A model generated the notes under the pieces. It saw only the letters and a list, made by a program, of their open reading frames with translations. It was not told the DNA's origin and did no database searches. Shown piece by piece: positions 680-29,522 of a stretch of 32,000 nucleotides of DNA. A program made the translations under genes and the position numbers. Position 1 is the stretch's first letter, and every line of letters begins with the position of its first letter. The DNA comes from Candidatus Heimdallarchaeota archaeon (lineage in GTDB: Archaea > Asgardarchaeota > Heimdallarchaeia > JABLTI01). The stretch is from contig JAUWKS010000015.1 in assembly GCA_030614005.1 (NCBI GenBank), positions 27,944 to 59,943 of the forward strand, given 5' to 3'.

Positions 680-716
680 GCGGGGGTAGCCCAGCTAGGT
701 CAAAGGCGCAGGGTTT
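680..716 (+). pseudogene. Orphan 5' half of a tRNA-Leu (acceptor 5' strand, D arm, anticodon stem 5' strand, U32-U33-U34)
   Basis: GCGGGGGTAGCCCAGCTAGGTCAAAGGCGCAGGGTTT is 33/37 identical to 7494-7530; no T-arm or acceptor 3' strand follows. Confidence 0.85.
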
Positions 717-5672: not shown

Positions 5673-5737
5673 ACCAACATAAAATTTGTTGGTAGAAGCA
5701 TTTAAATATTATTATTACCAATTGGTTATATGGTGGT
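5673..5737. promoter_or_regulatory. Divergent abrB/tnpB promoter: palindromic TATA flanked by two operator-like inverted repeats
   Basis: ATTTAAAT at 5700-5707 lies about 30 nt from both ATGs; ACCA-N13-TGGT at 5673-5693 and again at 5717-5737. Confidence 0.55.
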
Positions 5738-5740
5738 AAA

Positions 5741-7339
5741 ATGTCTTCATTCCTTAAAAAATATTACTTCAAAATAACACTTCCAGAAAACAAAAAGAAA
5801 TACTTGAGCAATTTCAAACAGTTGATAGAGAAGGCTACTAAACAATCATTAGAAAAACTTTGGTCGGAAGAATGGATAACACAATTAGGAATAACTACAG
5901 TAAAAGCACATTGCATCATTACAGCAGGACGTATAAGTATTGAGGAAGAAGGAAAGAAAATATATCTTCCCTCACGAGTGCGAATGGGGATTGCAGAACG
6001 AATCGGCAGAATTCTAAGAAGTCAATACAAGAGAATGAAATGTTTCAATGATTGTTTGAAAATCATGGAAATTGTAGGAGTTAATGAAAACGAAAGCAAA
6101 CTCATTAAACTATTGAACTTAACCTTTAGAAGTTATAAGAATAAACCATATTATAAGAAAGTGCTACTATTACAAAACATCCGACTGATTAAAAATTGGC
6201 AACAAAAAATTAGTATTGATTTTCATATGTTATCTTACTGTAACATAGTAAAACCAACAATCAAAAATTTTGTTTTTCCTTATGGACCAGATAACTACCG
6301 AGAATTAGATTATATGGTTAGGAATACCAGTATATGGTTCAAAATCAGACTACCTACAACAATCAATTCGAGAAGCATTAATGATTGGGAGTGGATAGAA
6401 GGGCTCATCCCTATACCTGAAAAATTACAAAAGAAAATAAATGAAAGCACAAACCAACACCCAAAGAAACCAAGAATGATAACAAAAACACTCAAAGGAG
6501 GAAAGGAATATTTCTTCTTCAGTTTCCCTTGGAATTTTGAAAAGAAAAAAGTGGTACAAAAAGAACGAACTCGTGCTCTTGCAGTCGATCTCGGTTTGAA
6601 GAAAATTGCTACTGCAGTAGTTTGTGAAAAGGACAAGCAATTATCAAAACCAATCTACCTTAAGATTACTTCTAAACAATATCAACATATTGAGCGATTA
6701 TTCAAACACCTTCAAGGGATATCTATTCAAATAAAAAGAAAAACAGGGAATCACCGAAAACAGCAGGAAGAACAGGCAAGAATTTATAGAAAGCTCTCTC
6801 GAATAAAACATCAACTTGTACAAACAACTACTACTATTCTTATTGACAAAGCGAAACAATGGAATTGTAGTGAAATCATTCTTGAGGATTTACGAATGTT
6901 CAGACCTAAGAAGGGATTAAGGAAATGGTCACGACGATTAAATGAATGGTTACATGGACAAATTGCTCAAATATTAGAGTATAAAACAAATGAAGAAGGA
7001 ATTAAACTACTAAAAGTCACTCCATGGGGAACATCTATCCATTGCCCAAGATGTACAAACACTCGAGGCTTGAAAGTTACAAGTCCAACAATTCTCACAC
7101 CAAAAAAAAGTGGGAGATGGTTCTATTGCCCAAATTGTGGATTCAATGCAGATAGAGATTATAACGCAGCTTTGAATATTTTCCGTGCAAGATTCATCAA
7201 TTATCGAAAAATAAAGAGTCTAAAAGACACCAGCCCTATCCCCTATATGGAGATAGGAATTCCTTCGCCCGACCGTTCTTGGCGAAGGTCCAGAAATGAT
7301 CTAACAACTACTCAAGTGGTGTTAGTGACTGGGGGGTAA
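5741..7339 (+). CDS. tnpB: TnpB (IS200/IS605-family RNA-guided nuclease, Cas12f-sized, 532 aa)
   Basis: RuvC-I AVDLGLK, RuvC-II ILEDL, Zn finger CPRC...CPNCG, RuvC-III DRDYNAALNI; no tnpA nearby. Confidence 0.9.
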   Translation: MSSFLKKYYFKITLPENKKKYLSNFKQLIEKATKQSLEKLWSEEWITQLGITTVKAHCIITAGRISIEEEGKKIYLPSRVRMGIAERIGRILRSQYKRMKCFNDCLKIMEIVGVNENESKLIKLLNLTFRSYKNKPYYKKVLLLQNIRLIKNWQQKISIDFHMLSYCNIVKPTIKNFVFPYGPDNYRELDYMVRNTSIWFKIRLPTTINSRSINDWEWIEGLIPIPEKLQKKINESTNQHPKKPRMITKTLKGGKEYFFFSFPWNFEKKKVVQKERTRALAVDLGLKKIATAVVCEKDKQLSKPIYLKITSKQYQHIERLFKHLQGISIQIKRKTGNHRKQQEEQARIYRKLSRIKHQLVQTTTTILIDKAKQWNCSEIILEDLRMFRPKKGLRKWSRRLNEWLHGQIAQILEYKTNEEGIKLLKVTPWGTSIHCPRCTNTRGLKVTSPTILTPKKSGRWFYCPNCGFNADRDYNAALNIFRARFINYRKIKSLKDTSPIPYMEIGIPSPDRSWRRSRNDLTTTQVVLVTGG

Positions 7340-7390
7340 AGAATATTCTTTACCCAAATGAAAAGAACGGTAAGGCTTAGGACCTTGTAT
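7230..7390 (+). ncRNA. Putative TnpB omegaRNA (reRNA) scaffold overlapping the tnpB 3' end; boundaries approximate
   Basis: Stems 7235-7240/7252-7257 and 7262-7269/7281-7288, perfect palindrome 7334-7355, loop 7272-7280 pairing with 7363-7371 (pseudoknot), and 7285-7291/7380-7386. Confidence 0.7.
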
Positions 7391-7450
7391 TTTAAATAAG
7401 AGCTGCAAGAAAAAATAAATTTTGGGCAATAGGTGATTTTTTAAATCATA

Positions 7451-7466
7451 GAAAGCATTTATAAAA
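7451..7466 (+). promoter_or_regulatory. BRE/TATA promoter of tRNA-Leu(UAG)
   Basis: GAAAGCA followed by TTTATAAA (7458-7465), 28 nt upstream of the mature 5' end. Confidence 0.55.
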
Positions 7467-7493
7467 TCTAAGTGAAAAAAATCTCTTAGTTCT

Positions 7494-7581
7494 GCGGGGA
7501 TAGCCCAGCATGGTCAAAGGCGCAGGATTTAGGCTCCTGTCTCGCAGGAGTACGCGCGTTCAAATCGCGTTCCCCGCACCA
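7494..7581 (+). tRNA. tRNA-Leu(UAG), intronless, CCA encoded
   Basis: Acceptor GCGGGGA/TCCCCGC, anticodon stem CAGGA/TCCTG with TAG at 7530-7532, long variable arm, T arm GCGCG-TTCAAAT-CGCGT, ACCA end. Confidence 0.97.
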
Positions 7582-7681
7582 ATCATATTATTTTCTATTA
7601 TTTGTTGTTACTTCCTTTCGTTGTTTTAAACTAAGATGTCTTTAAGAAAGCAAAGACGTACACTATTTCAGGAGAAATTTA

Positions 7682-9307
7682 ATGTCTGCATTCTTACATT
7701 GGGAATCGGATCCTTTACTACTCGATCTTACACCAACAGTACAAAACACTTGGGTAACTGCAAATGAATTATTGGAGAAAGAGACAAGGGACAAATTCCA
7801 AACAGAAGCAGAGCGTCTATTATTATATCCAATTATAATCCGTAAAGTAGATTTTATTACCGGTGAGCGCATTTTACAATCCTTCCCGTACATTCTCCTA
7901 AATCAAGAGTGGATTTCAAGGATACGAAAACAATCACTGGCTCATGCAGAGAAAGCACATCACTATTTTTTAGGGTCAAATATTTCAAAATCCATTCGAG
8001 ACTGGCAGCGAAAGATCATCAATTATCTCGAAGAGCAACAACGCCTCCCCTTTCCTCTTTTCCGGTTGATCCCCTCTTGGGAAACCTTCTTTCAAGGAAA
8101 ACAGTACATCCAATTTCAATCTGCACGAGGTGAAGGTTTTCAACTTCCACTCAAACTCACAGAAGAATTAGCATATTTAGTAGGTGTTGTGATGGGTGAT
8201 GGACACCTAGCGAACTACTTCGTTAATATAATTGATAGCTCGAAGGAGCATATTGAGAACCTTGTTAAATCATTAAAAAGAATATTTCAAACCAACATCG
8301 AATTTTTCGTTCAAAAAAACGCTCAAGCATGGAATGTCAATCTGCTTGGTAAATGGATTGTTCGGTTCTTTAATTTCCTATCCGGACAACCAATAGCCCA
8401 ACGAAAATATCCTCACTTGCGAGAACCACATCTCTTTCAAGACAAACCTTCCTTTCGTTCTGCCTTCTGGCGTGGACTTATGGATGCAGATGGGAGCTAT
8501 ATATCAACAATCAGTTTTGGCACAGCATCAAAAAAATTACTAAAAGATTTTTCAGACTTTTTAACCCAACAGAATATCCATCATCGATTCTATGAACAAT
8601 CAGTTTTTGGTGGTACAACATATAGTTTCAATATTGCTGGTGAATCTAGAAAGCAGTTTACACAGCTCATTGGTTCAAATCATCCGCAAAAAAAGTTGGA
8701 ATTAGAGAACTTACTCACTAGAAGAGTTAATCGTTTTGCTCGAAAAAGTGCAACATTGCGTAAACAAGGATTTTGGAAAGGGCAAGTAGTAGAAATTCAA
8801 CAAAAGAAAATGGTTGCTGGATATTTTAACTTTTTATTAATGCCACATTTCAGTTTGTCAACTTTCGGTGAAGAAATACGAAAATTGCGTCGTTTCCACA
8901 ATCACACTCAACAAAGTTTAGCAACAGAAGTCAATATTAAGAGGACATTGTTATCAAATTATGAGTTAAATATTACAACAATTCCAATAGCTGATTTAGA
9001 TAAAATATACTCATTCTATAATCGTTCATTATTAACCATTCTCAAAGAATATCCAAAGCTATTCATTCATTCTAGAAGTTCCCATTGTATGATAGATACC
9101 CAACCAAATAAAAAATTGTTACAATTACTAAGTGGTTTGCAATTTAAGGAAAGAGGATGTATAATGATTCTTAGAGAGAACAACAAGTCTAATGTTTCTT
9201 ATAGAGAAGAACTTAGTGATTATTTTTCCATAGATATAAAGTCAAATCGATTCCACAATTCAGCGCTTAATAACTTTGTAAGAGAGTTTTTTGTTCTTCG
9301 GAAGTAA
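7682..9307 (+). CDS. Free-standing double-motif LAGLIDADG-family protein fused to an XRE-type HTH
   Basis: LAYLVGVVMGDGHL and AFWRGLMDADGS motifs; EIRKLRRFHNHTQQSLATEVNIKRTLLSNYELN is an XRE HTH; AGGAG ribosome-binding site upstream. Confidence 0.8.
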   Translation: MSAFLHWESDPLLLDLTPTVQNTWVTANELLEKETRDKFQTEAERLLLYPIIIRKVDFITGERILQSFPYILLNQEWISRIRKQSLAHAEKAHHYFLGSNISKSIRDWQRKIINYLEEQQRLPFPLFRLIPSWETFFQGKQYIQFQSARGEGFQLPLKLTEELAYLVGVVMGDGHLANYFVNIIDSSKEHIENLVKSLKRIFQTNIEFFVQKNAQAWNVNLLGKWIVRFFNFLSGQPIAQRKYPHLREPHLFQDKPSFRSAFWRGLMDADGSYISTISFGTASKKLLKDFSDFLTQQNIHHRFYEQSVFGGTTYSFNIAGESRKQFTQLIGSNHPQKKLELENLLTRRVNRFARKSATLRKQGFWKGQVVEIQQKKMVAGYFNFLLMPHFSLSTFGEEIRKLRRFHNHTQQSLATEVNIKRTLLSNYELNITTIPIADLDKIYSFYNRSLLTILKEYPKLFIHSRSSHCMIDTQPNKKLLQLLSGLQFKERGCIMILRENNKSNVSYREELSDYFSIDIKSNRFHNSALNNFVREFFVLRK

Positions 9308-23952: not shown

Positions 23953-25740
23953 ATGGATGACTTATTAGAAAAGGAATTAAAAAAACCTTCTTTAATTAAA
24001 AATCCAAGAATCTTAGATTTAAAATATATACCAAAGAAACTTCTTCACAGAGAAGACGAACAAAAGATGTTAATCAAATATTTCAAACCAGTTATTGAAG
24101 ATCCTGGTAAGTATTCTCAAAATGTAACAATTATTGGTCCTGTAGGAACTGGAAAAACAGCTATTGCTCTTAAATTTGGGGAAATGATTAAAGTATATTC
24201 AGCTCGAAAGAATCTGAATTTGGAATATGTTCATGTAAATTGCCGTAGAGCTCGATCAGCTTTTCTTACTCTACTTGAGGTTGCGAGAAAATTTAATCCG
24301 AATATATCGGTCAAAAAATTTTTACCAGATGAAATTATTAACATGCTTGTTAACTTACTTAGTCAAAGGAATTCTTTTTTGATTATTACATTAGATGAAA
24401 TTGATTTTATTATTCGGAAGGAAGGTTCAGATTTTCTTTATGATATGACCAGACTTACTGATGATAAACTGGATGAGAAGGAACGGATATCTCTTATTAC
24501 AATAGCACGTGAAAGTGAATTTAGAAAATTATTGGACGATAGTACTCTTAGTACTTTAAGACAAAATATAATTTCATTAGTACCGTATAATGAAGATCAA
24601 TTAAGGGATATAATAAAAGATAGAGCAAATGAAGCTTTTTATGAAGATACAGTTTCAGCAGAAGCTATTGATTTAATTTCAGATATAACTTCGAGAAAAG
24701 GAGATACCAGATTTGCTATTGAATTGTTGGAACGTGCTGGTATGTATGCAGATCACAAACAGTCACTAAAAGTTTTACCTGAACATGTAAGACATGCAAA
24801 TGCCTTGATTCATCCCTCAATTGGACAGGAAATTGTTACAGATTTAACAATTCATCAACAAATCATTCTATTAGCTATCGCAAAACAACTTCTGTCAACT
24901 AATAATGCATATGTGACTTTGGTTGAGGTAAAAACTGTTGACAGAGAACTGTGTAAAGATTATATGCTACCAATAAGCGAACATGCACTAATATTGGAAA
25001 ATCTTCAACATTTAGAATATTGTAATTTGATTGCAATAAAATATAGTAAAAAAGAGAAGAAAAAGCAACAGACCTTGATTAGTTTGTTGGATGTTTCAGC
25101 TGAAATAATTAAGAAGACAATTAAAGAACAATTACAAAAAACTACAAATGTTGTAAATGCAATTAAGCTTAAAGATAAAGATACGACCGAAGATAAATTA
25201 GTAAAAGATGTAAAAAAACTTCTAAAAATCTCATTTGAAGGAAATTTCTTTGACGTTAAAAGAGCATATGATAAAATAACCAGAGCAGAAATGACCAAAG
25301 ATATAATCGCTTTAGTAAATTCATCAGAAGAAAATGACAATACCGCATATGCAATAATTGGTATTGTAGAAATAAATCAAAAATTCGTATCAGCAGTAAA
25401 TGTGGAGAAAATTGATGTCATAGAACAAAAGATTGTGGATTGTATAAAATACAACACTAATCGAAAAATAAACCTACAAATAAGAAAAATAAGAATCTAT
25501 GAGCTCTATCTGTGGCAACAAAATAACGAAATTACAGATGAGATAGTTTTTAAAGAAGAACAGAAAAAACCGGAAAGCAAAGAGCAAATATTAGTAATAC
25601 AATTAAAGAGAGAATCAAGAGTTGTATATGAGTTGGCAAAGAAAACAGGATCATATGAAAAAGGGAGATCGTGGAAAAGAATTGGGTCACATACAGATGA
25701 ATTAACGCAAGATGATAGAGAAAAGCTAATGAAATTATAA
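23953..25740 (+). CDS. cdc6: Cdc6/Orc1 AAA+ replication initiator with a C-terminal Schlafen/AlbA_2-like domain
   Basis: LLHREDE, Walker A GPVGTGKT, Walker B LDEID, GDTRFAIELL, wHTH; the extra ~180 aa contain EGNFFDVK, KDIIALVNS, AIIGI and WKRIGSHT. Confidence 0.85.
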   Translation: MDDLLEKELKKPSLIKNPRILDLKYIPKKLLHREDEQKMLIKYFKPVIEDPGKYSQNVTIIGPVGTGKTAIALKFGEMIKVYSARKNLNLEYVHVNCRRARSAFLTLLEVARKFNPNISVKKFLPDEIINMLVNLLSQRNSFLIITLDEIDFIIRKEGSDFLYDMTRLTDDKLDEKERISLITIARESEFRKLLDDSTLSTLRQNIISLVPYNEDQLRDIIKDRANEAFYEDTVSAEAIDLISDITSRKGDTRFAIELLERAGMYADHKQSLKVLPEHVRHANALIHPSIGQEIVTDLTIHQQIILLAIAKQLLSTNNAYVTLVEVKTVDRELCKDYMLPISEHALILENLQHLEYCNLIAIKYSKKEKKKQQTLISLLDVSAEIIKKTIKEQLQKTTNVVNAIKLKDKDTTEDKLVKDVKKLLKISFEGNFFDVKRAYDKITRAEMTKDIIALVNSSEENDNTAYAIIGIVEINQKFVSAVNVEKIDVIEQKIVDCIKYNTNRKINLQIRKIRIYELYLWQQNNEITDEIVFKEEQKKPESKEQILVIQLKRESRVVYELAKKTGSYEKGRSWKRIGSHTDELTQDDREKLMKL

Positions 25741-25819: not shown

Positions 25820-25867
25820 ATCTTGTTTTGTAGAAGTTCGCGCGTTCGAATCGCGCACTCCGCACCA
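25820..25867 (+). repeat. Orphan, decayed 3' half of a tRNA-Leu (att-like)
   Basis: ATCTTG-TTTTGTAGAAGTTC-GCGCG-TTCGAAT-CGCGC-ACTCCGC-ACCA is colinear without gaps with 7534-7581; no 5' half upstream. Confidence 0.85.
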
Positions 25868-25910: not shown

Positions 25911-25945
25911 TAGATTAATGTAATTAAAAACACTATTGATTTCAC
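25911..25945 (+). repeat. Left copy of a 35/36-bp direct repeat flanking the dcd operon
   Basis: TAGATTAATGTAATTAAAAACACTATTGATTTCAC vs 29523-29558: 32/36 aligned, last 18 bp identical. Confidence 0.8.
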
Positions 25946-26025
25946 CAGTAGAACCAACAAGTAGATTTTTAGAAAAAAATATTTTGAGAACCATGGGGTA
26001 TAAAATTAGATTCTGAATATTCCTT

Positions 26026-26661
26026 TTATTCGAGTCTTTCCTTATTTTTTTCATCAATATATTTACCTAATTTAATAATTTCTGGGTCTTCAAATATTTT
26101 TGAATATCCAGGTCCTAGTTCTCCATAATATTTAGATTTCCTAGTGATTATTTCTTCTGTTTTTAGTTTATGAAAAACAATTTGTGCGATTCTCAATCCA
26201 GGATATAAATAAACTGGAATTTCTCCGATGTTTGCAATTTCAAATGTTAAATTCCCAGTATAACCGGGATGTACATGTGTTGCAGTAGCATGAATTACAA
26301 TTCCTAATCGCCCCCATGAAGATCTACCACTCAAATATCCCATTAGATCATACGGCAATCTTAGATATTCCAACGTTGAAGATAATATGAAACTACCAGG
26401 ATGCATAACAAGATAATCCCCAATATCGAGCCTAAAGATTTCTTGAGAATTTCTTGCTATTTCTTTATCATCTTTGCTAACTACATCAATCTTTGATGAT
26501 TGTATCATTTTTGAAGGCATAAAAATAAATCCCAATCTGAGATCTACAGAACCCTTATCAATCTGTTTTTCTTCATCCAATAAAGGCATAATATACAGTC
26601 TTTTCATTGGTTTTGGATGTCTTAGATAATCGTGAATATCTTTTGAAGATAGTATAACCAT
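26026..26661 (-). CDS. dcd: dCTP deaminase (trimeric dUTPase fold)
   Basis: GSVDLRLG, PGSFILSSTLE, GRSSWGRLG, HPGYTGNLTFE, RIAQIVF. Confidence 0.92.
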   Translation of the reverse strand: MVILSSKDIHDYLRHPKPMKRLYIMPLLDEEKQIDKGSVDLRLGFIFMPSKMIQSSKIDVVSKDDKEIARNSQEIFRLDIGDYLVMHPGSFILSSTLEYLRLPYDLMGYLSGRSSWGRLGIVIHATATHVHPGYTGNLTFEIANIGEIPVYLYPGLRIAQIVFHKLKTEEIITRKSKYYGELGPGYSKIFEDPEIIKLGKYIDEKNKERLE

Positions 26662-26673
26662 TTTCTGTGTCCC

Positions 26674-28083
26674 CTATTTTTCCTTTAAGAAATTGAGCTC
26701 ATAACGAAGATAACTTAGTTCAATAGAATTCGAAATATATTTATTTATATAAGTAAATACCTCTTCATCATTTGCAATGAAAGTTTCATTACTTATTAGT
26801 TCTTTAATTGAATCTAATTTGTTTCTGTATAAATACCATCCAAAATTTAGAATCTCAATGAAATTAAAATTCCTAAAATTAGGAGTATGTTTTGGTTCAT
26901 AAACCTCACTAATTGGTACAGAGATATCGAATTGCTCCTCTAATTCACTAATTTTTGATTTCAAGTAATTTAAGTCTACACTTTGGTTATCAGTTTTTTC
27001 TTCTACAACTTCGATGATTTTTTCTTTTAGATTATTTAGAATAAATAGTAATGTTTCCTGAGTTATAAAATCTTCAATATTGGTTTTTTCGGTTGTATTT
27101 TTTAGTTCTTTAGTTAGATTAGATACGTGCTCATTAATTATATGATTTATTTCATCGTCAACAAAAATTTGATATTTATTAGAATTTCGCTTTATTATTT
27201 CATTTAGAAAATAAAAGCGCAGACAATTTGGTGGATGTGTACTTTGGAATGGTCCAGAAATATCATCAGTTGAAAAAATCCAAATAAACGAATATAAAAA
27301 TGAGAATCCAAATATTCTTAGTGCAAAAATATCTGAAACTATTTCATTTACCCATTTGTGAATTTTAAATTTGAGTTTGTTTATAATTGGATCAGGATAT
27401 TTTGATAAAATCTTTGAAAAATCAGTTGTAAAAATTTGATCATGAATATTTTGATTTTTATAGAAATAATGCCCAAGCTCATGACCATATAAAGAATGAA
27501 TTAGTGGCATTTCCTTAAGTGTATAAGGAAAAGATAAAACTATTGATTCAATAGTGAATTTATTAAGGAATGATTCTATATTTTCGAAATGATCAGGAAG
27601 AAAATTTTTCAGATCTGAGAGTATATATCTTATTGAATAATTTATTTGCCATTTTGCTTGAAAGACTAAATTATATTCAAAATCATTTTTTGTTGAAACT
27701 TTATTAAATAAATCTTTTAAAGGATATAAAAATTCAAAAGGAATATCCTTTTTATTTGCATTTGATATTATTTCCAAAAGAGTATAGCTTACATTCTGAA
27801 CAATCGTATGTCTCTGTATCTTTGAAAAATTAGCATCAAAAAAAATCTTATCGTTAAAAATTTCTTTCTTTTGTTCATATAGATTTTGTAATTCTTCTTC
27901 CAAAATTTCGAGTTGCTTATTCATCAGAATTATTAAATCAATAAGATAATTCAGTAAATATCTTATACCTTTATAGTTGCTAAATGTATTTTTGTGTTTT
28001 TCAATCCAATCCATTAGTGCTTTATAATAAATCTTAATATATGAAATAGCATTTTTAATTCTAGTATAAAATGGATTATCCAT
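26674..28083 (-). CDS. Hypothetical HExxH protein (putative gluzincin-type metallopeptidase)
   Basis: YGHELGHYF, downstream EIVSDIFAL (third ligand position) and THPP; 469 aa. Confidence 0.65.
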   Translation of the reverse strand: MDNPFYTRIKNAISYIKIYYKALMDWIEKHKNTFSNYKGIRYLLNYLIDLIILMNKQLEILEEELQNLYEQKKEIFNDKIFFDANFSKIQRHTIVQNVSYTLLEIISNANKKDIPFEFLYPLKDLFNKVSTKNDFEYNLVFQAKWQINYSIRYILSDLKNFLPDHFENIESFLNKFTIESIVLSFPYTLKEMPLIHSLYGHELGHYFYKNQNIHDQIFTTDFSKILSKYPDPIINKLKFKIHKWVNEIVSDIFALRIFGFSFLYSFIWIFSTDDISGPFQSTHPPNCLRFYFLNEIIKRNSNKYQIFVDDEINHIINEHVSNLTKELKNTTEKTNIEDFITQETLLFILNNLKEKIIEVVEEKTDNQSVDLNYLKSKISELEEQFDISVPISEVYEPKHTPNFRNFNFIEILNFGWYLYRNKLDSIKELISNETFIANDEEVFTYINKYISNSIELSYLRYELNFLKEK

Positions 28084-28090
28084 TATTTAG

Positions 28091-28558
28091 TCAATTCCGT
28101 ATTGGTATTGGAGATTTATAAGATTCTTCGATATTTTCAATTGATGATTTCAAAGTGCTTTTACTAAGTAAAGAGACTTTTTCTCTAAGAGAATTTAGAT
28201 TATCTTTCGAAATGGTTTCTTTATTACTTTTTAACATTTTTAATTCAATTAAAATTTCTTCAAGAAAATGATATGAGGCTTCCAATTTCACAATATAATC
28301 ATTTTTAGTGTCAACTTCAGCTGGAAATATTTCTTCAATTCTAAGAAAACTTTTCGATTTTAGAGATGTAGAATCAGGCCTTTTATCAAGTAGAATGATT
28401 TCGATTTTTGAAATAGAATTATCTAAAATTAAATAATCTTTTTTCGATAAACTCAGATTCATATATATTTTTGTTAGCGTAATAGCTAAATCATCGAATA
28501 AAAAACCAATGTTTACTAATTTTCCAACAGTCCCTAATGAATAAAAATCAGATGTCAA
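28091..28558 (-). CDS. Hypothetical helical protein, first gene of the dcd operon
   Basis: 155-aa ORF with a TTG start and GGTGGA upstream; ends 7 nt before the next gene. Confidence 0.65.
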   Translation of the reverse strand: MTSDFYSLGTVGKLVNIGFLFDDLAITLTKIYMNLSLSKKDYLILDNSISKIEIILLDKRPDSTSLKSKSFLRIEEIFPAEVDTKNDYIVKLEASYHFLEEILIELKMLKSNKETISKDNLNSLREKVSLLSKSTLKSSIENIEESYKSPIPIRN

Positions 28559-28954
28559 TAGCTCAGTCCACCATACATTTTTTCAATCGCTTTTTTATTA
28601 AATATCTTTGTTTATATATATATATTTTGAGAACGGAAACGTCTCAATATATATTTCGTCTTATTTCTTATAAATACCTATAAATGATTCTTTATTATAA
28701 ATAAGTAATGATTAGGGATTTAATCTACCAATATTATTTTATATTGATTTAATTTTGTAAAAATTCATATTCCCAACTATATTTTATTCTATGCTTTTCT
28801 TTTTCACGATTATTTAGACATTTAATTTGAATTTTTACTAATTGTGCTCTAATATTAATACTACGCAATTCCTTTTCTAGATCTAAATGAAATTCTTCAC
28901 CACTAACGATTGGTTTTATTTTATCAATTACAGGATTCCGACCAATAATATGAT

Positions 28955-29294
28955 ATGTAATTTCTGGTTTTATCGAAATTCCTTTTCCTGAACTCTTTAT
29001 TAATAGAATAAATGGTTTACAATTAAGAGTTGATAACTTAATTGAGTATTTACAGAATGAGAATATAGAAATTATGAAATTTCAATTGGAGAATCTGATG
29101 AAGATTTTAAAGAAATTTCTCTTTCAATTAAGTTAGAGCAACATGAAAAGAGAATTGATTCAATAAACAATCGTTTAGATTTAATCCAAAGAAATAACGG
29201 AATTACGATGATAATTATCTCAACAACGTCATCATTAATTTCTACTTTTTTTGCTATACTTCATATTTTAGTCATCAAATTAAATATAATTTAA
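28955..29294 (+). pseudogene. Possible frameshifted remnant of a coiled-coil protein with a C-terminal membrane anchor
   Basis: Two overlapping open frames (...FIEIPFPELFINRINGLQLRVDNLIEY... and ...LEQHEKRIDSINNRLDLIQRNNGITMIIISTTSSLISTFFAILHILV...) with no proper start. Confidence 0.25.
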
Positions 29295-29522
29295 TATCTA
29301 TAAAATCATTTTATCACTTATTTTTTTCCTATTAATTAAAATCAATTTATAACCCAAACTAAATGATCTCTAATTTGCTTGCTAAATTACGCATTTCATT
29401 ATAGGTCTAATTTTAATTAAAGGACTAATGATGGAAATATTGTTTACTAACGATCTTGTTCAATTATCTATTATATAACGTAAAATGTGTTTAGTTGTCA
29501 GAGGAATTTAAATAATATAAGC

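What the first reader, a model, noticed from the sequence alone, without database searches (positions are those of the whole stretch)
23953..25740. Cdc6/Orc1 fused to a Schlafen (AlbA_2) RNase-like domain
Seen: a full-length, host-like Cdc6 (AAA+ and wHTH, ~400 aa), a Lys/Asp-rich linker, then E429-x4-D434-x-K436 (EGNFFDVK), KDIIALVNS, AIIGI and a terminal KRIGSHT. These match the AlbA_2 pattern E-x4-E-x-K...K-x-I-x-A-x-x-N...I-I-G-V...R-x-G-S. Known: the Schlafen core is a tRNA endonuclease (SLFN11/12 act on tRNA-Leu(UAA)), and prokaryotic Schlafen domains are fused to varied sensors. Inference: a replication-initiator domain used as a sensor or decoy for viral origins or replication proteins, triggering tRNA cleavage; or an element initiator with a built-in addiction toxin. 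I do not know of this fusion being described.
Basis: partly seen in the sequence, partly recalled or inferred. Interest (0 to 1): 0.8.

Follow-up and report, generated by a model that had tools for sequence, protein, structure and literature searches.

The report
Orc1/Cdc6 initiator fused to Schlafen nuclease
A Heimdall-group (Asgard) archaeon encodes one protein joining a diverged copy of its own replication-initiator (Orc1/Cdc6) to a Schlafen-type RNA-cutting domain, at the edge of DNA inserted into a tRNA gene; the fusion is real, recurs in a distant relative, and is probably a sensor-plus-nuclease conflict protein, though no function was tested.

Summary
Window 23953-25740 (+) is an intact 595-aa ORF. 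Residues 1-394 are a complete Orc1/Cdc6. Residues 415-595 are a Schlafen/AlbA_2 domain by transitive profile evidence and a pLDDT-95 fold, with an invariant E429-x4-D434-x-K436.

The fusion is not an artefact. Independent contigs from two runs span the junction unchanged. A 590-aa fused relative (56% identity) occurs in two other samples, and its C-terminus passes Pfam's AlbA_2 threshold on its own.

In the sister species the same gene carries TAA where this one has CAA (Q395), so the fusion is interrupted there. Both halves have evolved under purifying selection (dN/dS about 0.2).

The Orc1 part is a fast-evolving paralogue (67-70% identity) of the genus-wide initiator. Its ATPase motifs are intact; its winged-helix DNA-binding domain is heavily altered.

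The gene is the last gene of a 25-kb insertion that splits a tRNA-Leu gene. Four congeners have the empty site, and tRNA-Leu remnants also flank the distant fused copy.

Relatives of the nuclease domain are fused to HEAT, WD40-Roc, TPR or LRR sensor-type repeats.

Best reading (about 0.5): an Orc1-derived ATP/DNA switch controlling a Schlafen RNase, carried on a mobile island. Main rival: the island's own replication initiator with a toxin domain. I found no published description of this architecture.

The parts
23953..25740 (+). Whole ORF, 595 aa: Orc1/Cdc6 - linker - Schlafen/AlbA_2
   Evidence: Junction confirmed by independent contigs of two runs.
23953..25134 (+). Orc1/Cdc6 module (aa 1-394): AAA+ base, lid, winged helix. 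A diverged paralogue of the genus-wide 'type A' Orc1.
   Evidence: Pfam and NCBIfam hits. 67-70% identity to type A. Long branch in trees. Winged helix changed at 32 of 72 type-A-invariant columns.
24136..24159 (+). Walker A, GPVGTGKT (aa 62-69)
24391..24405 (+). Walker B, LDEID (aa 147-151)
25048..25071 (+). Winged-helix wing segment KKEKKKQQ (aa 366-373). It replaces the type-A-invariant G-Q-R-G-Q-T-type wing.
25135..25137 (+). Codon CAA (Gln395). The sister species has TAA here, ending its Cdc6 ORF at 392 aa.
   Evidence: The CAA is present in contigs of runs X1 and X2.
25135..25194 (+). Lys/Asp/Thr-rich linker (aa 395-414)
25195..25737 (+). Schlafen/AlbA_2 domain (aa 415-595)
25237..25260 (+). 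Predicted catalytic motif E429-x4-D434-x-K436
   Evidence: Invariant in 21 of 21 family members. The motif is defined as Ex4(E/D)xK in PMC12330615.
23814..23952 (+). Upstream region conserved with the sister species. It contains an AT-rich TATA-like element about 30 nt before the ATG; the promoter role is inferred.
25826..25867 (+). Decayed 3' remnant of the native tRNA-Leu gene; right end of the insertion, 86 nt after the stop codon.
680..716 (+). 5' half of the native tRNA-Leu gene; left end of the insertion.
7494..7581 (+). Intact tRNA-Leu(TAG) carried inside the inserted DNA.

Best explanation
Two points are shown with high confidence. First, this is a genuine single-chain fusion of a complete Orc1/Cdc6 AAA+/winged-helix module to a C-terminal Schlafen (AlbA_2) nuclease domain that keeps the Ex4DxK catalytic signature. 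Second, the Orc1 module is a rapidly diverged paralogue of the host's own initiator, and the gene is carried at the edge of DNA inserted into a tRNA-Leu gene of a Heimdall-group archaeon.

The mechanism is inferred. The protein would be a one-protein conflict (defence or exclusion) system. The Orc1-derived module would act as the ATP-dependent sensor or switch. It would bind foreign or aberrant replication DNA through its ISM and re-tooled winged helix, or serve as a decoy for factors that target the host initiator. It would then license the Schlafen domain to cut tRNA or other RNA and shut down translation in the affected cell.

In the sister species the two halves are separated by a stop codon. 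The nuclease there may be made separately from a TTG/GTG start, or may no longer be made.
For: Domain identity:
- Orc1/Cdc6 profile hits.
- 17 of 21 homologues of the C-terminal domain hit PF04326, and the fused relative P0033 passes its gathering threshold (30.3 vs 25.3 bits).
- The family profile hits SLFN12 and the CRISPR-associated Schlafen CbCash in the PDB.
- AF2 model pLDDT 95. Foldseek ranks 1-34 in the PDB are Schlafen/SAMD9/AlbA_2. Z is 10.1 to DIP2311, 8.7 to the SAMD9 tRNase domain and 8.0-8.1 to SLFN11/14.
- E429, D434 and K436 are invariant in the family.

Fusion is real and maintained:
- Contigs of two runs span it.
- 590-aa fused relatives at 56% identity occur in two further samples.
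- dN/dS is 0.23 for the Orc1 part and 0.19 for the AlbA_2 part against the sister species.

Sensor-effector logic:
- The same AlbA_2 subfamily is C-terminally fused to HEAT, WD40-Roc GTPase, TPR and LRR modules.
- Prokaryotic Schlafens are shown anti-phage tRNases fused to sensors (PMC12330615; PMC13462974).
- ORC/Cdc6-clade ATPases have been proposed as DNA sensors in defence systems (10.64898/2026.10.19.760177; PMC12839542).

Neofunctionalisation:
- The host keeps a separate, highly conserved type A Orc1; the sister species has both copies.
- The fused copies are long branches.
- Walker A/B, the sensor-2 GDxR and the ISM are intact, but 40-44% of type-A-invariant winged-helix columns are changed in both fused lineages, including the wing.

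Context:
- The island is variable and includes a complete type I R-M system.
- Distribution is sporadic: 2 of 11 genus genomes, and the AlbA_2 subfamily occurs in 17 of 399 Asgard genomes searched.
Against: - No activity, expression or phenotype data exist.
- The window's own C-terminal domain does not hit PF04326 directly.
- PADLOC recognises neither this protein nor its immediate neighbours.
- The in-frame stop in the sister species shows that the covalent fusion is dispensable there.
- The position next to the attachment-site remnant, in three genomes, fits an element-backbone gene (a replication protein) as well as it fits cargo.
- The G000 assembly lacks the type A Orc1, so I cannot exclude that the fused protein serves as an initiator in this organism.
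- Trees do not resolve whether the two fused lineages share one origin.
Confidence: 0.5

Rival explanations
1. The protein is the replication initiator of the integrated element. The Orc1 module fires an origin on the excised island, and the Schlafen domain serves the element as an addiction toxin, a host-shutoff or anti-competitor nuclease, or an extra nucleic-acid-binding domain.
For: - The gene is the last gene of a ~25-kb insertion that splits tRNA-Leu, 86 nt from the right-end remnant. The same junction is present in the sister species although the inner cargo differs.
- The distant fused copy (L051) has tRNA-Leu 3'-half-like remnants on both sides.
- Orc1/Cdc6 genes are common replication genes of archaeal integrated plasmids and proviruses (my own knowledge).
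- The ATPase motifs are intact.
Against: - No integrase or other replication or mobility backbone was recognised in the island apart from a TnpB and a LAGLIDADG protein.
- No conserved repeat (ORB-like) cluster lies next to the gene, and only ~140 nt upstream are conserved between the two species.
- The winged-helix wing that is invariant in the functional type A initiators is lost.
- No relatives were found in IMG/VR viral contigs.
- The nuclease subfamily's other partners are sensor-type repeats, not replication proteins.
Confidence: 0.25
2. The protein is a host-intrinsic regulator. It would be a second Orc1 paralogue that couples replication-origin or replication-stress status to translation by cleaving tRNA. 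This is analogous to, not homologous in architecture with, human SLFN11 at stressed forks.
For: - It is a close paralogue of the host initiator with intact ATPase motifs.
- The Schlafen catalytic motif is retained.
- It lies ~31 kb from where the type A orc1 sits in congeners.
Against: - It is present in only 2 of 11 genus genomes and inside an insertion that is absent from four congeners.
- It is interrupted by a stop in one of the two species.
- A core regulator would be expected to be conserved.
Confidence: 0.1
3. The fusion has no function of its own. Either two adjacent in-frame genes (Cdc6, then a stand-alone AlbA_2 nuclease) were joined in this genome by a TAA-to-CAA stop loss, or the gene is decaying.
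For: - The sister species has TAA at the junction and TTG GTG (possible starts) where this genome has TTA GTA.
- Natural type A Orc1 proteins end only 4-6 residues beyond that point.
Against: - A 56%-identical relative has the same continuous fusion in two other samples.
- The linker stays in frame and both halves show dN/dS of about 0.2.
- About 97% of prokaryotic Schlafen domains are fused to other domains (PMC12330615).
Confidence: 0.07

Closest known systems
Prokaryotic Schlafen (pSlfn) anti-phage proteins, e.g. RorSlfn5 (Ig-like sensor + Slfn tRNase; PMC12330615), and CRISPR-associated Schlafen, Cash (Csx15 + Slfn; PMC13462974)
   Same: AlbA_2/Schlafen fold. Catalytic Ex4(E/D)xK motif, in the same Ex4DxK variant as RorSlfn5. 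The nuclease is fused in one chain to a different putative sensing module. The location is a variable island next to a restriction system.
   Different: The partner is a full Orc1/Cdc6 replication-initiator paralogue, which I did not find described. The Schlafen domain is C-terminal and carries a family-specific ~45-residue insert. The organism is an Asgard archaeon. No trigger, target or protection has been shown.
Archaeal Orc1/Cdc6 replication initiators (TIGR02928; the genus' own 'type A' Orc1)
   Same: Complete AAA+ base, ISM, lid and winged-helix domains. 67-70% identity to type A. Walker A/B and sensor-2 are intact. It scores above the TIGR02928 cutoff.
   Different: It has ~200 extra C-terminal residues. 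40-44% of type-A-invariant winged-helix positions are changed, including the wing. It evolves fast, is patchy in distribution, and lies in inserted DNA rather than at the conserved type A locus.
ORC/Cdc6-clade AAA+ ATPases recruited to defence (BrxC and DUF499 of BREX and BREX-related systems; the ORC-CDC6 component of HINPO systems)
   Same: An ORC/Cdc6-type ATPase with a wHTH is proposed to sense or bind selfish-element DNA and is coupled to RNase effectors (HEPN, Schlafen) in the same loci.
   Different: Those ATPases are distant, specialised families in multi-gene systems. Here the ATPase is a recent copy of the organism's own initiator and is fused directly to the effector.
Human SLFN11 (Schlafen tRNase + helicase acting at stressed replication forks)
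   Same: A Schlafen RNase core joined to a P-loop NTPase module that reads DNA or replication status.
   Different: The NTPase is different (SF1 helicase vs AAA+ Orc1) and the domain order is reversed. The resemblance is an analogy; there is no evidence of common descent of the architecture.

Membership tests
Orc1/Cdc6 (TIGR02928; Pfam Cdc6_lid PF22703 + Cdc6_C PF09079) | Family HMM scores above the curated cutoffs | tested here: met
   TIGR02928 254.4 bits vs 181.3. PF22703 76.1 vs 27. PF09079 37.1 vs 25.1. The equivalog model NF001623 falls below its cutoff (280.8 vs 311).
Orc1/Cdc6 (TIGR02928; Pfam Cdc6_lid PF22703 + Cdc6_C PF09079) | Intact AAA+ motifs (Walker A, Walker B, sensor-2 GDxR, ISM) | tested here: met
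   GPVGTGKT, LDEID and GDTR are present, and the ISM segment is identical to the type A consensus.
Orc1/Cdc6 (TIGR02928; Pfam Cdc6_lid PF22703 + Cdc6_C PF09079) | Winged-helix DNA-contact elements conserved as in the functional initiators of the same genus | tested here: not met
   32 of 72 type-A-invariant wH columns are changed. The wing G-Q-R-G-Q-T is replaced by E-K-K-K-Q-Q, and by E-H-Y-G-N-I in P0033. The DNA-contact role of these residues is inferred from published Orc1-DNA structures (my own knowledge).
Orc1/Cdc6 (TIGR02928; Pfam Cdc6_lid PF22703 + Cdc6_C PF09079) | Binds an origin and initiates replication | not testable with these tools
   No conserved ORB-like repeats were seen next to the gene, but this is weak evidence.
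Schlafen / AlbA_2 (Pfam PF04326) | Family HMM hit above the gathering score | tested here: inconclusive
   The window's own domain gives no hit at E<=10. 17 of 21 homologues hit (best 8.9e-11). P0005, P0015, P0016, P0002, P0004 and the fused relative P0033 pass the 25.3-bit cutoff. The window domain is 35-46% identical to these.
Schlafen / AlbA_2 (Pfam PF04326) | AlbA_2 fold | tested here: met
   AF2 pLDDT 95.4, pTM 0.89. Foldseek PDB ranks 1-34 are Schlafen/SAMD9/AlbA_2 entries, 16 of them at E<=0.001, with probability 1.00 for the best rows. Swiss-Prot hits are Schlafens. VIA-align Z 10.1 (3lmm), 8.8 (2kyy), 8.7 (SAMD9 tRNase), 8.0-8.1 (SLFN11/14), then a drop to about 5 for Alba proteins.
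Schlafen / AlbA_2 (Pfam PF04326) | Catalytic Ex4(E/D)xK motif | tested here: met
   E429, D434 and K436 are invariant in 21 of 21 family members. Pfam profile position 1 aligns to the first Glu of the motif in homologues. The motif definition comes from PMC12330615.
Schlafen / AlbA_2 (Pfam PF04326) | tRNA/RNA endonuclease activity | not testable with these tools
   Needs biochemistry.
Prokaryotic Schlafen defence proteins (pSlfn) | Nuclease fused to a sensor domain in one polypeptide | tested here: met
   The fusion is confirmed. That the Orc1 module acts as a sensor is an inference.
Prokaryotic Schlafen defence proteins (pSlfn) | Located among defence genes or in variable islands | tested here: met
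   A complete type I R-M (HsdM/S/R) plus a YgjP peptidase lie directly upstream. Island content differs between the two species. Four congeners have the empty site. PADLOC gave no hits for this protein or its immediate neighbours.
Prokaryotic Schlafen defence proteins (pSlfn) | Protects against viruses or mobile elements in a nuclease-dependent way | not testable with these tools
tRNA-gene-integrated genomic island or integrative element | Insertion bounded by parts of a tRNA gene, with an empty site in relatives | tested here: met
   The 5' half is at 680-716 and the 3' remnant at 25826-25867. JAB - tRNA-Leu - ABC is contiguous in G001, G002, G003 and G004.
tRNA-gene-integrated genomic island or integrative element | Recognisable integrase/recombinase | tested here: inconclusive
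   No tyrosine or serine recombinase was found by Pfam in the island ORFs. A TnpB, a LAGLIDADG-HTH protein and a 1378-aa protein without Pfam hits are present.

The most novel reading that the evidence does not exclude
An Asgard mobile island duplicated its host's own replication initiator and wired it to a Schlafen tRNase. This would make a guard or decoy that reads attacks on, or hijacking of, the replication-initiation machinery and answers by cutting tRNA. The same island splits the native tRNA-Leu(TAG) gene and supplies a variant tRNA-Leu(TAG) with a different anticodon stem-loop. That variant might be the nuclease-resistant, 'immune' copy of the target. If so, the trio of initiator-decoy, Schlafen nuclease and replacement tRNA would form one addiction or exclusion module, and would be an archaeal precedent for the link between replication stress and Schlafen known from human SLFN11.
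Probability: 0.1. Interest if true: 0.9.

Novelty: new variant of a known kind. Interest (0 to 1): 0.62.

Why it matters
Schlafen nucleases have only recently been shown to be antiviral tRNases in bacteria as well as in humans, and what their many fused "sensor" domains detect is mostly unknown. Here the partner is a near-copy of the cell's replication initiator, not an orphan domain. Its ligands (ATP, origin-like DNA, MCM) are well understood, which makes a sensing hypothesis directly testable.

The organism belongs to the Heimdall group, the archaea closest to eukaryotes. In eukaryotes, SLFN11 couples replication stress to tRNA cleavage. A functional Orc1-Schlafen protein would show that linking the replication machinery to translation shut-off is an old and recurrent solution.

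The finding also documents a tRNA-Leu integration hot spot in Asgard genomes, with a clean empty site and a replacement tRNA. That is useful for defining Asgard mobile elements.

Tried and rejected
- Direct Pfam, NCBIfam and PADLOC scans of the C-terminal domain gave no AlbA_2 hit. The only hits were weak and sub-threshold: NitrOD1 (E 0.005), DUF7625 and an S1-domain model. I treat these as noise.
- The single-sequence AF2 model was useless (pLDDT 41). Only the alignment-based model was used.
- A word-index search with residues 400-595 found only the query itself. The fused relative P0033 appeared only in the full-length search.
- The search for related loci with the 21-row alignment failed because it had no conserved stretch.
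- With the 6-row alignment, JGI metagenomes gave three HEAT-AlbA_2 loci and no further Cdc6 fusion.
- IMG/VR viral contigs gave no relative of the nuclease domain or of P0033.
- Complex prediction, Orc1 module against AlbA_2 domain: no answer (score 0.00, controls not run). This is not evidence either way.
- No RNA holder was listed among the sequencing runs, so expression could not be assessed.
- The supplementary tables of the pSlfn paper are not held, so I could not check whether an Orc1/Cdc6 partner is among its 55 architectures. The main text does not mention AAA, ORC or Cdc6.
- Full-text searches for AlbA_2+Orc1, Schlafen+Cdc6+archaea and Schlafen+Asgard found no description of this fusion.
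- I tested whether the HEAT gene downstream of the distant fused copy is the detached N-terminus of the HEAT-AlbA_2 proteins. Only a 39-residue match at E 0.018 appeared, so I rejected this as unsupported.
- ORB-like origin repeats upstream of the gene: only one imperfect 18-nt pair, in a stretch not conserved in the sister species.
- The type A Orc1 or its flanks in G000: not found in the 90%-complete assembly. Absence from the genome cannot be concluded.
- HMMER's alignment of the family profile to SLFN12 places the motif on an upstream D-x4-D-x-K rather than on the catalytic E-x4-E-x-K. I did not rely on that alignment for residue equivalence.
Full report
**1. The observation.**
Window 23953-25740 (+) is an uninterrupted 595-codon ORF.

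The N-terminal ~394 residues are a complete Orc1/Cdc6. Scores are Cdc6_lid 76 bits, Cdc6_C winged helix 37 bits, and TIGR02928 254 bits against a cutoff of 181. Walker A (GPVGTGKT), Walker B (LDEID) and the GDxR sensor-2 are all present.

**2. The C-terminal domain.**
On its own it gives no Pfam AlbA_2 hit. An exhaustive HMMER search of 1.8 billion cluster representatives found 21 homologues, 16 of them at E <= 1e-10, and the match lies at or near the C-terminus in all but one of them. Seventeen of the 21 hit PF04326 SLFN_AlbA_2, and several pass its gathering score.

A profile of the family hits human SLFN12 (E 0.0025), the CRISPR-associated Schlafen CbCash, and SLFN14 in the PDB. Protein-language-model features point the same way.

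With the family alignment AlphaFold2 gives pLDDT 95.4 and pTM 0.89. The structure searches agree:
- Foldseek ranks 1-34 in the PDB are all Schlafen, SAMD9 tRNase or bacterial AlbA_2 entries.
- The Swiss-Prot hits are Schlafens.
- VIA-align gives Z 10.1 (DIP2311), 8.8 (2kyy), 8.7 (SAMD9 tRNase) and 8.0-8.1 (SLFN11/14). The next fold (Alba) scores about 5.

Ex4(E/D)xK is the published catalytic signature of prokaryotic and human Schlafen RNases, and the Ex4DxK variant is the one mutated in RorSlfn5 (PMC12330615). The domain assignment is therefore supported. RNase activity is inferred.

**3. Is the fusion real?**
Three lines of evidence bear on this.

(a) Independent Logan contigs from two cold-seep runs (X1 25055-25251; X2 24867-25350) cross the junction with no differences. 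Both belong to one study that may be the MAG's source, and depth is only about 3x.

(b) The sister species (G010, a Candidatus Heimdallarchaeota MAG) has the same locus at about 89% identity. It has TAA where this genome has CAA (Gln395, window 25135-25137). It also has TTG GTG, two possible starts, where this genome has TTA GTA. So there a 392-aa Cdc6 is followed in the same frame by a 180-200-codon open AlbA_2 frame. dN/dS between the two species is 0.23 for the Orc1 part, 0.20 for the 21-codon linker and 0.19 for the AlbA_2 part. Both halves have therefore been under purifying selection.

(c) A full-length search found P0033, 590 aa, 56% identical over 100% of the query. A cluster mate, P0151, sits on a 10.2-kb contig from another sample, and that contig translates exactly to the fused protein. 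P0033's C-terminus passes Pfam's AlbA_2 threshold by itself (30.3 vs 25.3 bits).

The architecture is thus maintained across large divergence. The stop in the sister species is best read as a secondary interruption or split. Natural type A Orc1 proteins end 4-6 residues beyond that point.

**4. What kind of Orc1 is it?**
Nearly all genomes of the genus carry a highly conserved ~400-aa 'type A' Orc1, which NCBI names an ORC1-type DNA replication protein. It is 67-70% identical to the Orc1 part of this protein. The sister species has both type A and the island copy on one contig, 34 kb apart.

In trees the island copies and P0033 are long branches inside the otherwise short-branched type A radiation. 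Monophyly of the fused copies is neither supported nor rejected (p-AU 0.29).

I compared each domain against 297 columns that are nearly invariant in type A:

| Domain | Columns changed in this protein | Columns changed in P0033 |
|---|---|---|
| N-terminus | 2 of 46 | 7 of 46 |
| AAA+ base | 30 of 129 | 17 of 129 |
| Lid | 5 of 50 | 8 of 50 |
| Winged helix | 32 of 72 | 29 of 72 |

The changes concentrate in the winged helix. They include the wing (G-Q-R-G-Q-T to E-K-K-K-Q-Q in this protein, or E-H-Y-G-N-I in P0033) and aromatic residues of the preceding helix. The ATPase motifs and the ISM are unchanged.

This is the pattern of a duplicated initiator whose ATP switch is kept and whose DNA-reading head is re-tooled. 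The residue roles are inferred from published Orc1-DNA structures (my own knowledge).

G000's assembly (90% complete) lacks type A and its flanks. In congeners type A lies about 31 kb beyond the MFS gene, where this contig ends. It is therefore probably unassembled, but this is not proven.

**5. Partners of the nuclease subfamily.**
The homologous C-terminal AlbA_2 domains are fused to HEAT repeats, WD40 + Roc GTPase, TPR or LRR modules. The subfamily occurs in 17 of 399 Asgard genomes searched, and only G000 and G010 have a Cdc6 next to it.

P0033's nuclease domain is closest to a HEAT-fused protein (56%). This suggests shuffling of N-terminal modules on a constant effector, which is typical of sensor-effector conflict proteins.

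**6. Genomic context.**
Four congeners show a compact JAB - tRNA-Leu(TAG) - ABC - MFS arrangement. In this window the native tRNA-Leu is split. Its 5' half is at 680-716, next to JAB. Its decayed 3' remnant is at 25826-25867, and the flank after it matches the empty-site flank.

About 25.1 kb lie between the two halves. In order, they hold:
- four unknown ORFs;
- a TnpB;
- an intact tRNA-Leu(TAG) at 7494-7581, the only full copy in the assembly;
- a LAGLIDADG-HTH gene;
- a 1378-aa protein;
- a helicase-MZB-phosphoesterase;
- a complete type I R-M (HsdM/S/R);
- a YgjP peptidase;
- as the last gene, Orc1-Schlafen, whose stop is 86 nt before the remnant.

The sister species shares the right junction and the TnpB-tRNA-LAGLIDADG left part, but it has different cargo between them. 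It also lacks the 3.6-kb dCTP-deaminase cassette that follows the remnant here.

In the distant contig L051 the fused gene has tRNA-Leu-3'-half-like remnants on both sides. So the gene is persistently linked to tRNA-Leu attachment-site remnants.

**7. Interpretation.**
The identity and the reality of the fusion are well supported. For function I favour (about 0.5) a single-chain conflict protein in which an Orc1-derived ATP/DNA switch controls a Schlafen RNase. The support is:
- the effector family's other sensor-type partners;
- published Schlafen defence systems (PMC12330615, PMC13462974);
- proposals that ORC/Cdc6-clade ATPases sense selfish DNA;
- the re-tooled winged helix;
- the patchy distribution;
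- the island context.

The main rival (about 0.25) is that it is the island's own initiator carrying a toxin or host-control domain. The att-proximal position in three genomes favours this. The lack of any recognisable integrase, origin repeats or viral relatives weakens it. A host checkpoint role (about 0.1) and a meaningless read-through (about 0.07) are less likely.

**8. Novelty.**
Schlafen effectors fused to varied sensors, and ORC/Cdc6-clade ATPases in defence, are both known. A bona fide paralogue of the host initiator fused directly to a Schlafen nuclease is not described in the papers I could search. I could not inspect the pSlfn supplementary tables. I rate it a new variant of a known kind: rare, with three lineages seen, and of above-average interest because it is in Asgard archaea and is directly testable.

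Noticed in passing
window 680-716, 7494-7581, 25826-25867: The native tRNA-Leu(TAG) gene is split near its anticodon loop by about 25.1 kb of inserted DNA. The insertion carries its own intact tRNA-Leu(TAG). Four congeners have the uninterrupted JAB - tRNA-Leu - ABC site. The island-borne tRNA differs from the native type in acceptor base 7, the D-loop and the anticodon stem-loop.
   Followed up: partly
window 25945-29519 (genes 26026-28558, minus strand): A 3.6-kb cassette holds a dCTP-deaminase-like gene plus 469-aa and 155-aa unknown proteins. It lies between the tRNA remnant and the ABC gene and is absent from the sister species. PADLOC does not recognise any of the three genes.
   Followed up: partly
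L051:3527-3600 and L051:5468-5535: The distant fused gene (P0151) is flanked on both sides by tRNA-Leu-3'-half-like remnants. It looks like a single-gene cassette, or the residue of repeated integrations. A HEAT-repeat gene and a TPR gene lie downstream.
   Followed up: partly
G000 whole assembly; G010:C6:80016-81197 (L019): The genus-wide type A Orc1 and its flanks are not found in this 90%-complete assembly. In congeners the gene lies about 31 kb beyond the MFS gene, where this contig ends. G000 shows only the fused copy and a 30%-identical Orc1 on contig C11.
   Followed up: partly
L020 / L068 (G002:C256:1-405, minus strand): A third species has a fragment 79% identical to the N-terminal 134 aa of the island-type Orc1, cut by a contig end. 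It is not at the tRNA-Leu site, which is empty in that genome. Whether it is fused to AlbA_2 cannot be seen.
   Followed up: no
window 5699-8208 and L006:1-2509: The TnpB - tRNA-Leu - LAGLIDADG-HTH segment is shared at 85% identity with the sister species. The following 1378-aa protein and the helicase-MZB-metallophosphatase are not at that place there. A diverged LAGLIDADG and part of the helicase lie upstream of JAB in G010 instead (L069).
   Followed up: partly
proteins P0006-P0021; loci L029, L030: The same AlbA_2 subfamily forms the C-terminus of ~940-aa WD40-Roc GTPase proteins, and of HEAT, TPR and LRR proteins, several of them in other Asgard families. This is a family of repeat/GTPase-sensor plus Schlafen proteins that deserves its own look.
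   Followed up: partly
PDB SLFN12 alignment: HMMER aligns the family's E-x4-D-x-K to an upstream D-x4-D-x-K in SLFN12 rather than to the catalytic E-x4-E-x-K 14 residues later. This is a caution against transferring residue numbers from that alignment.
   Followed up: no
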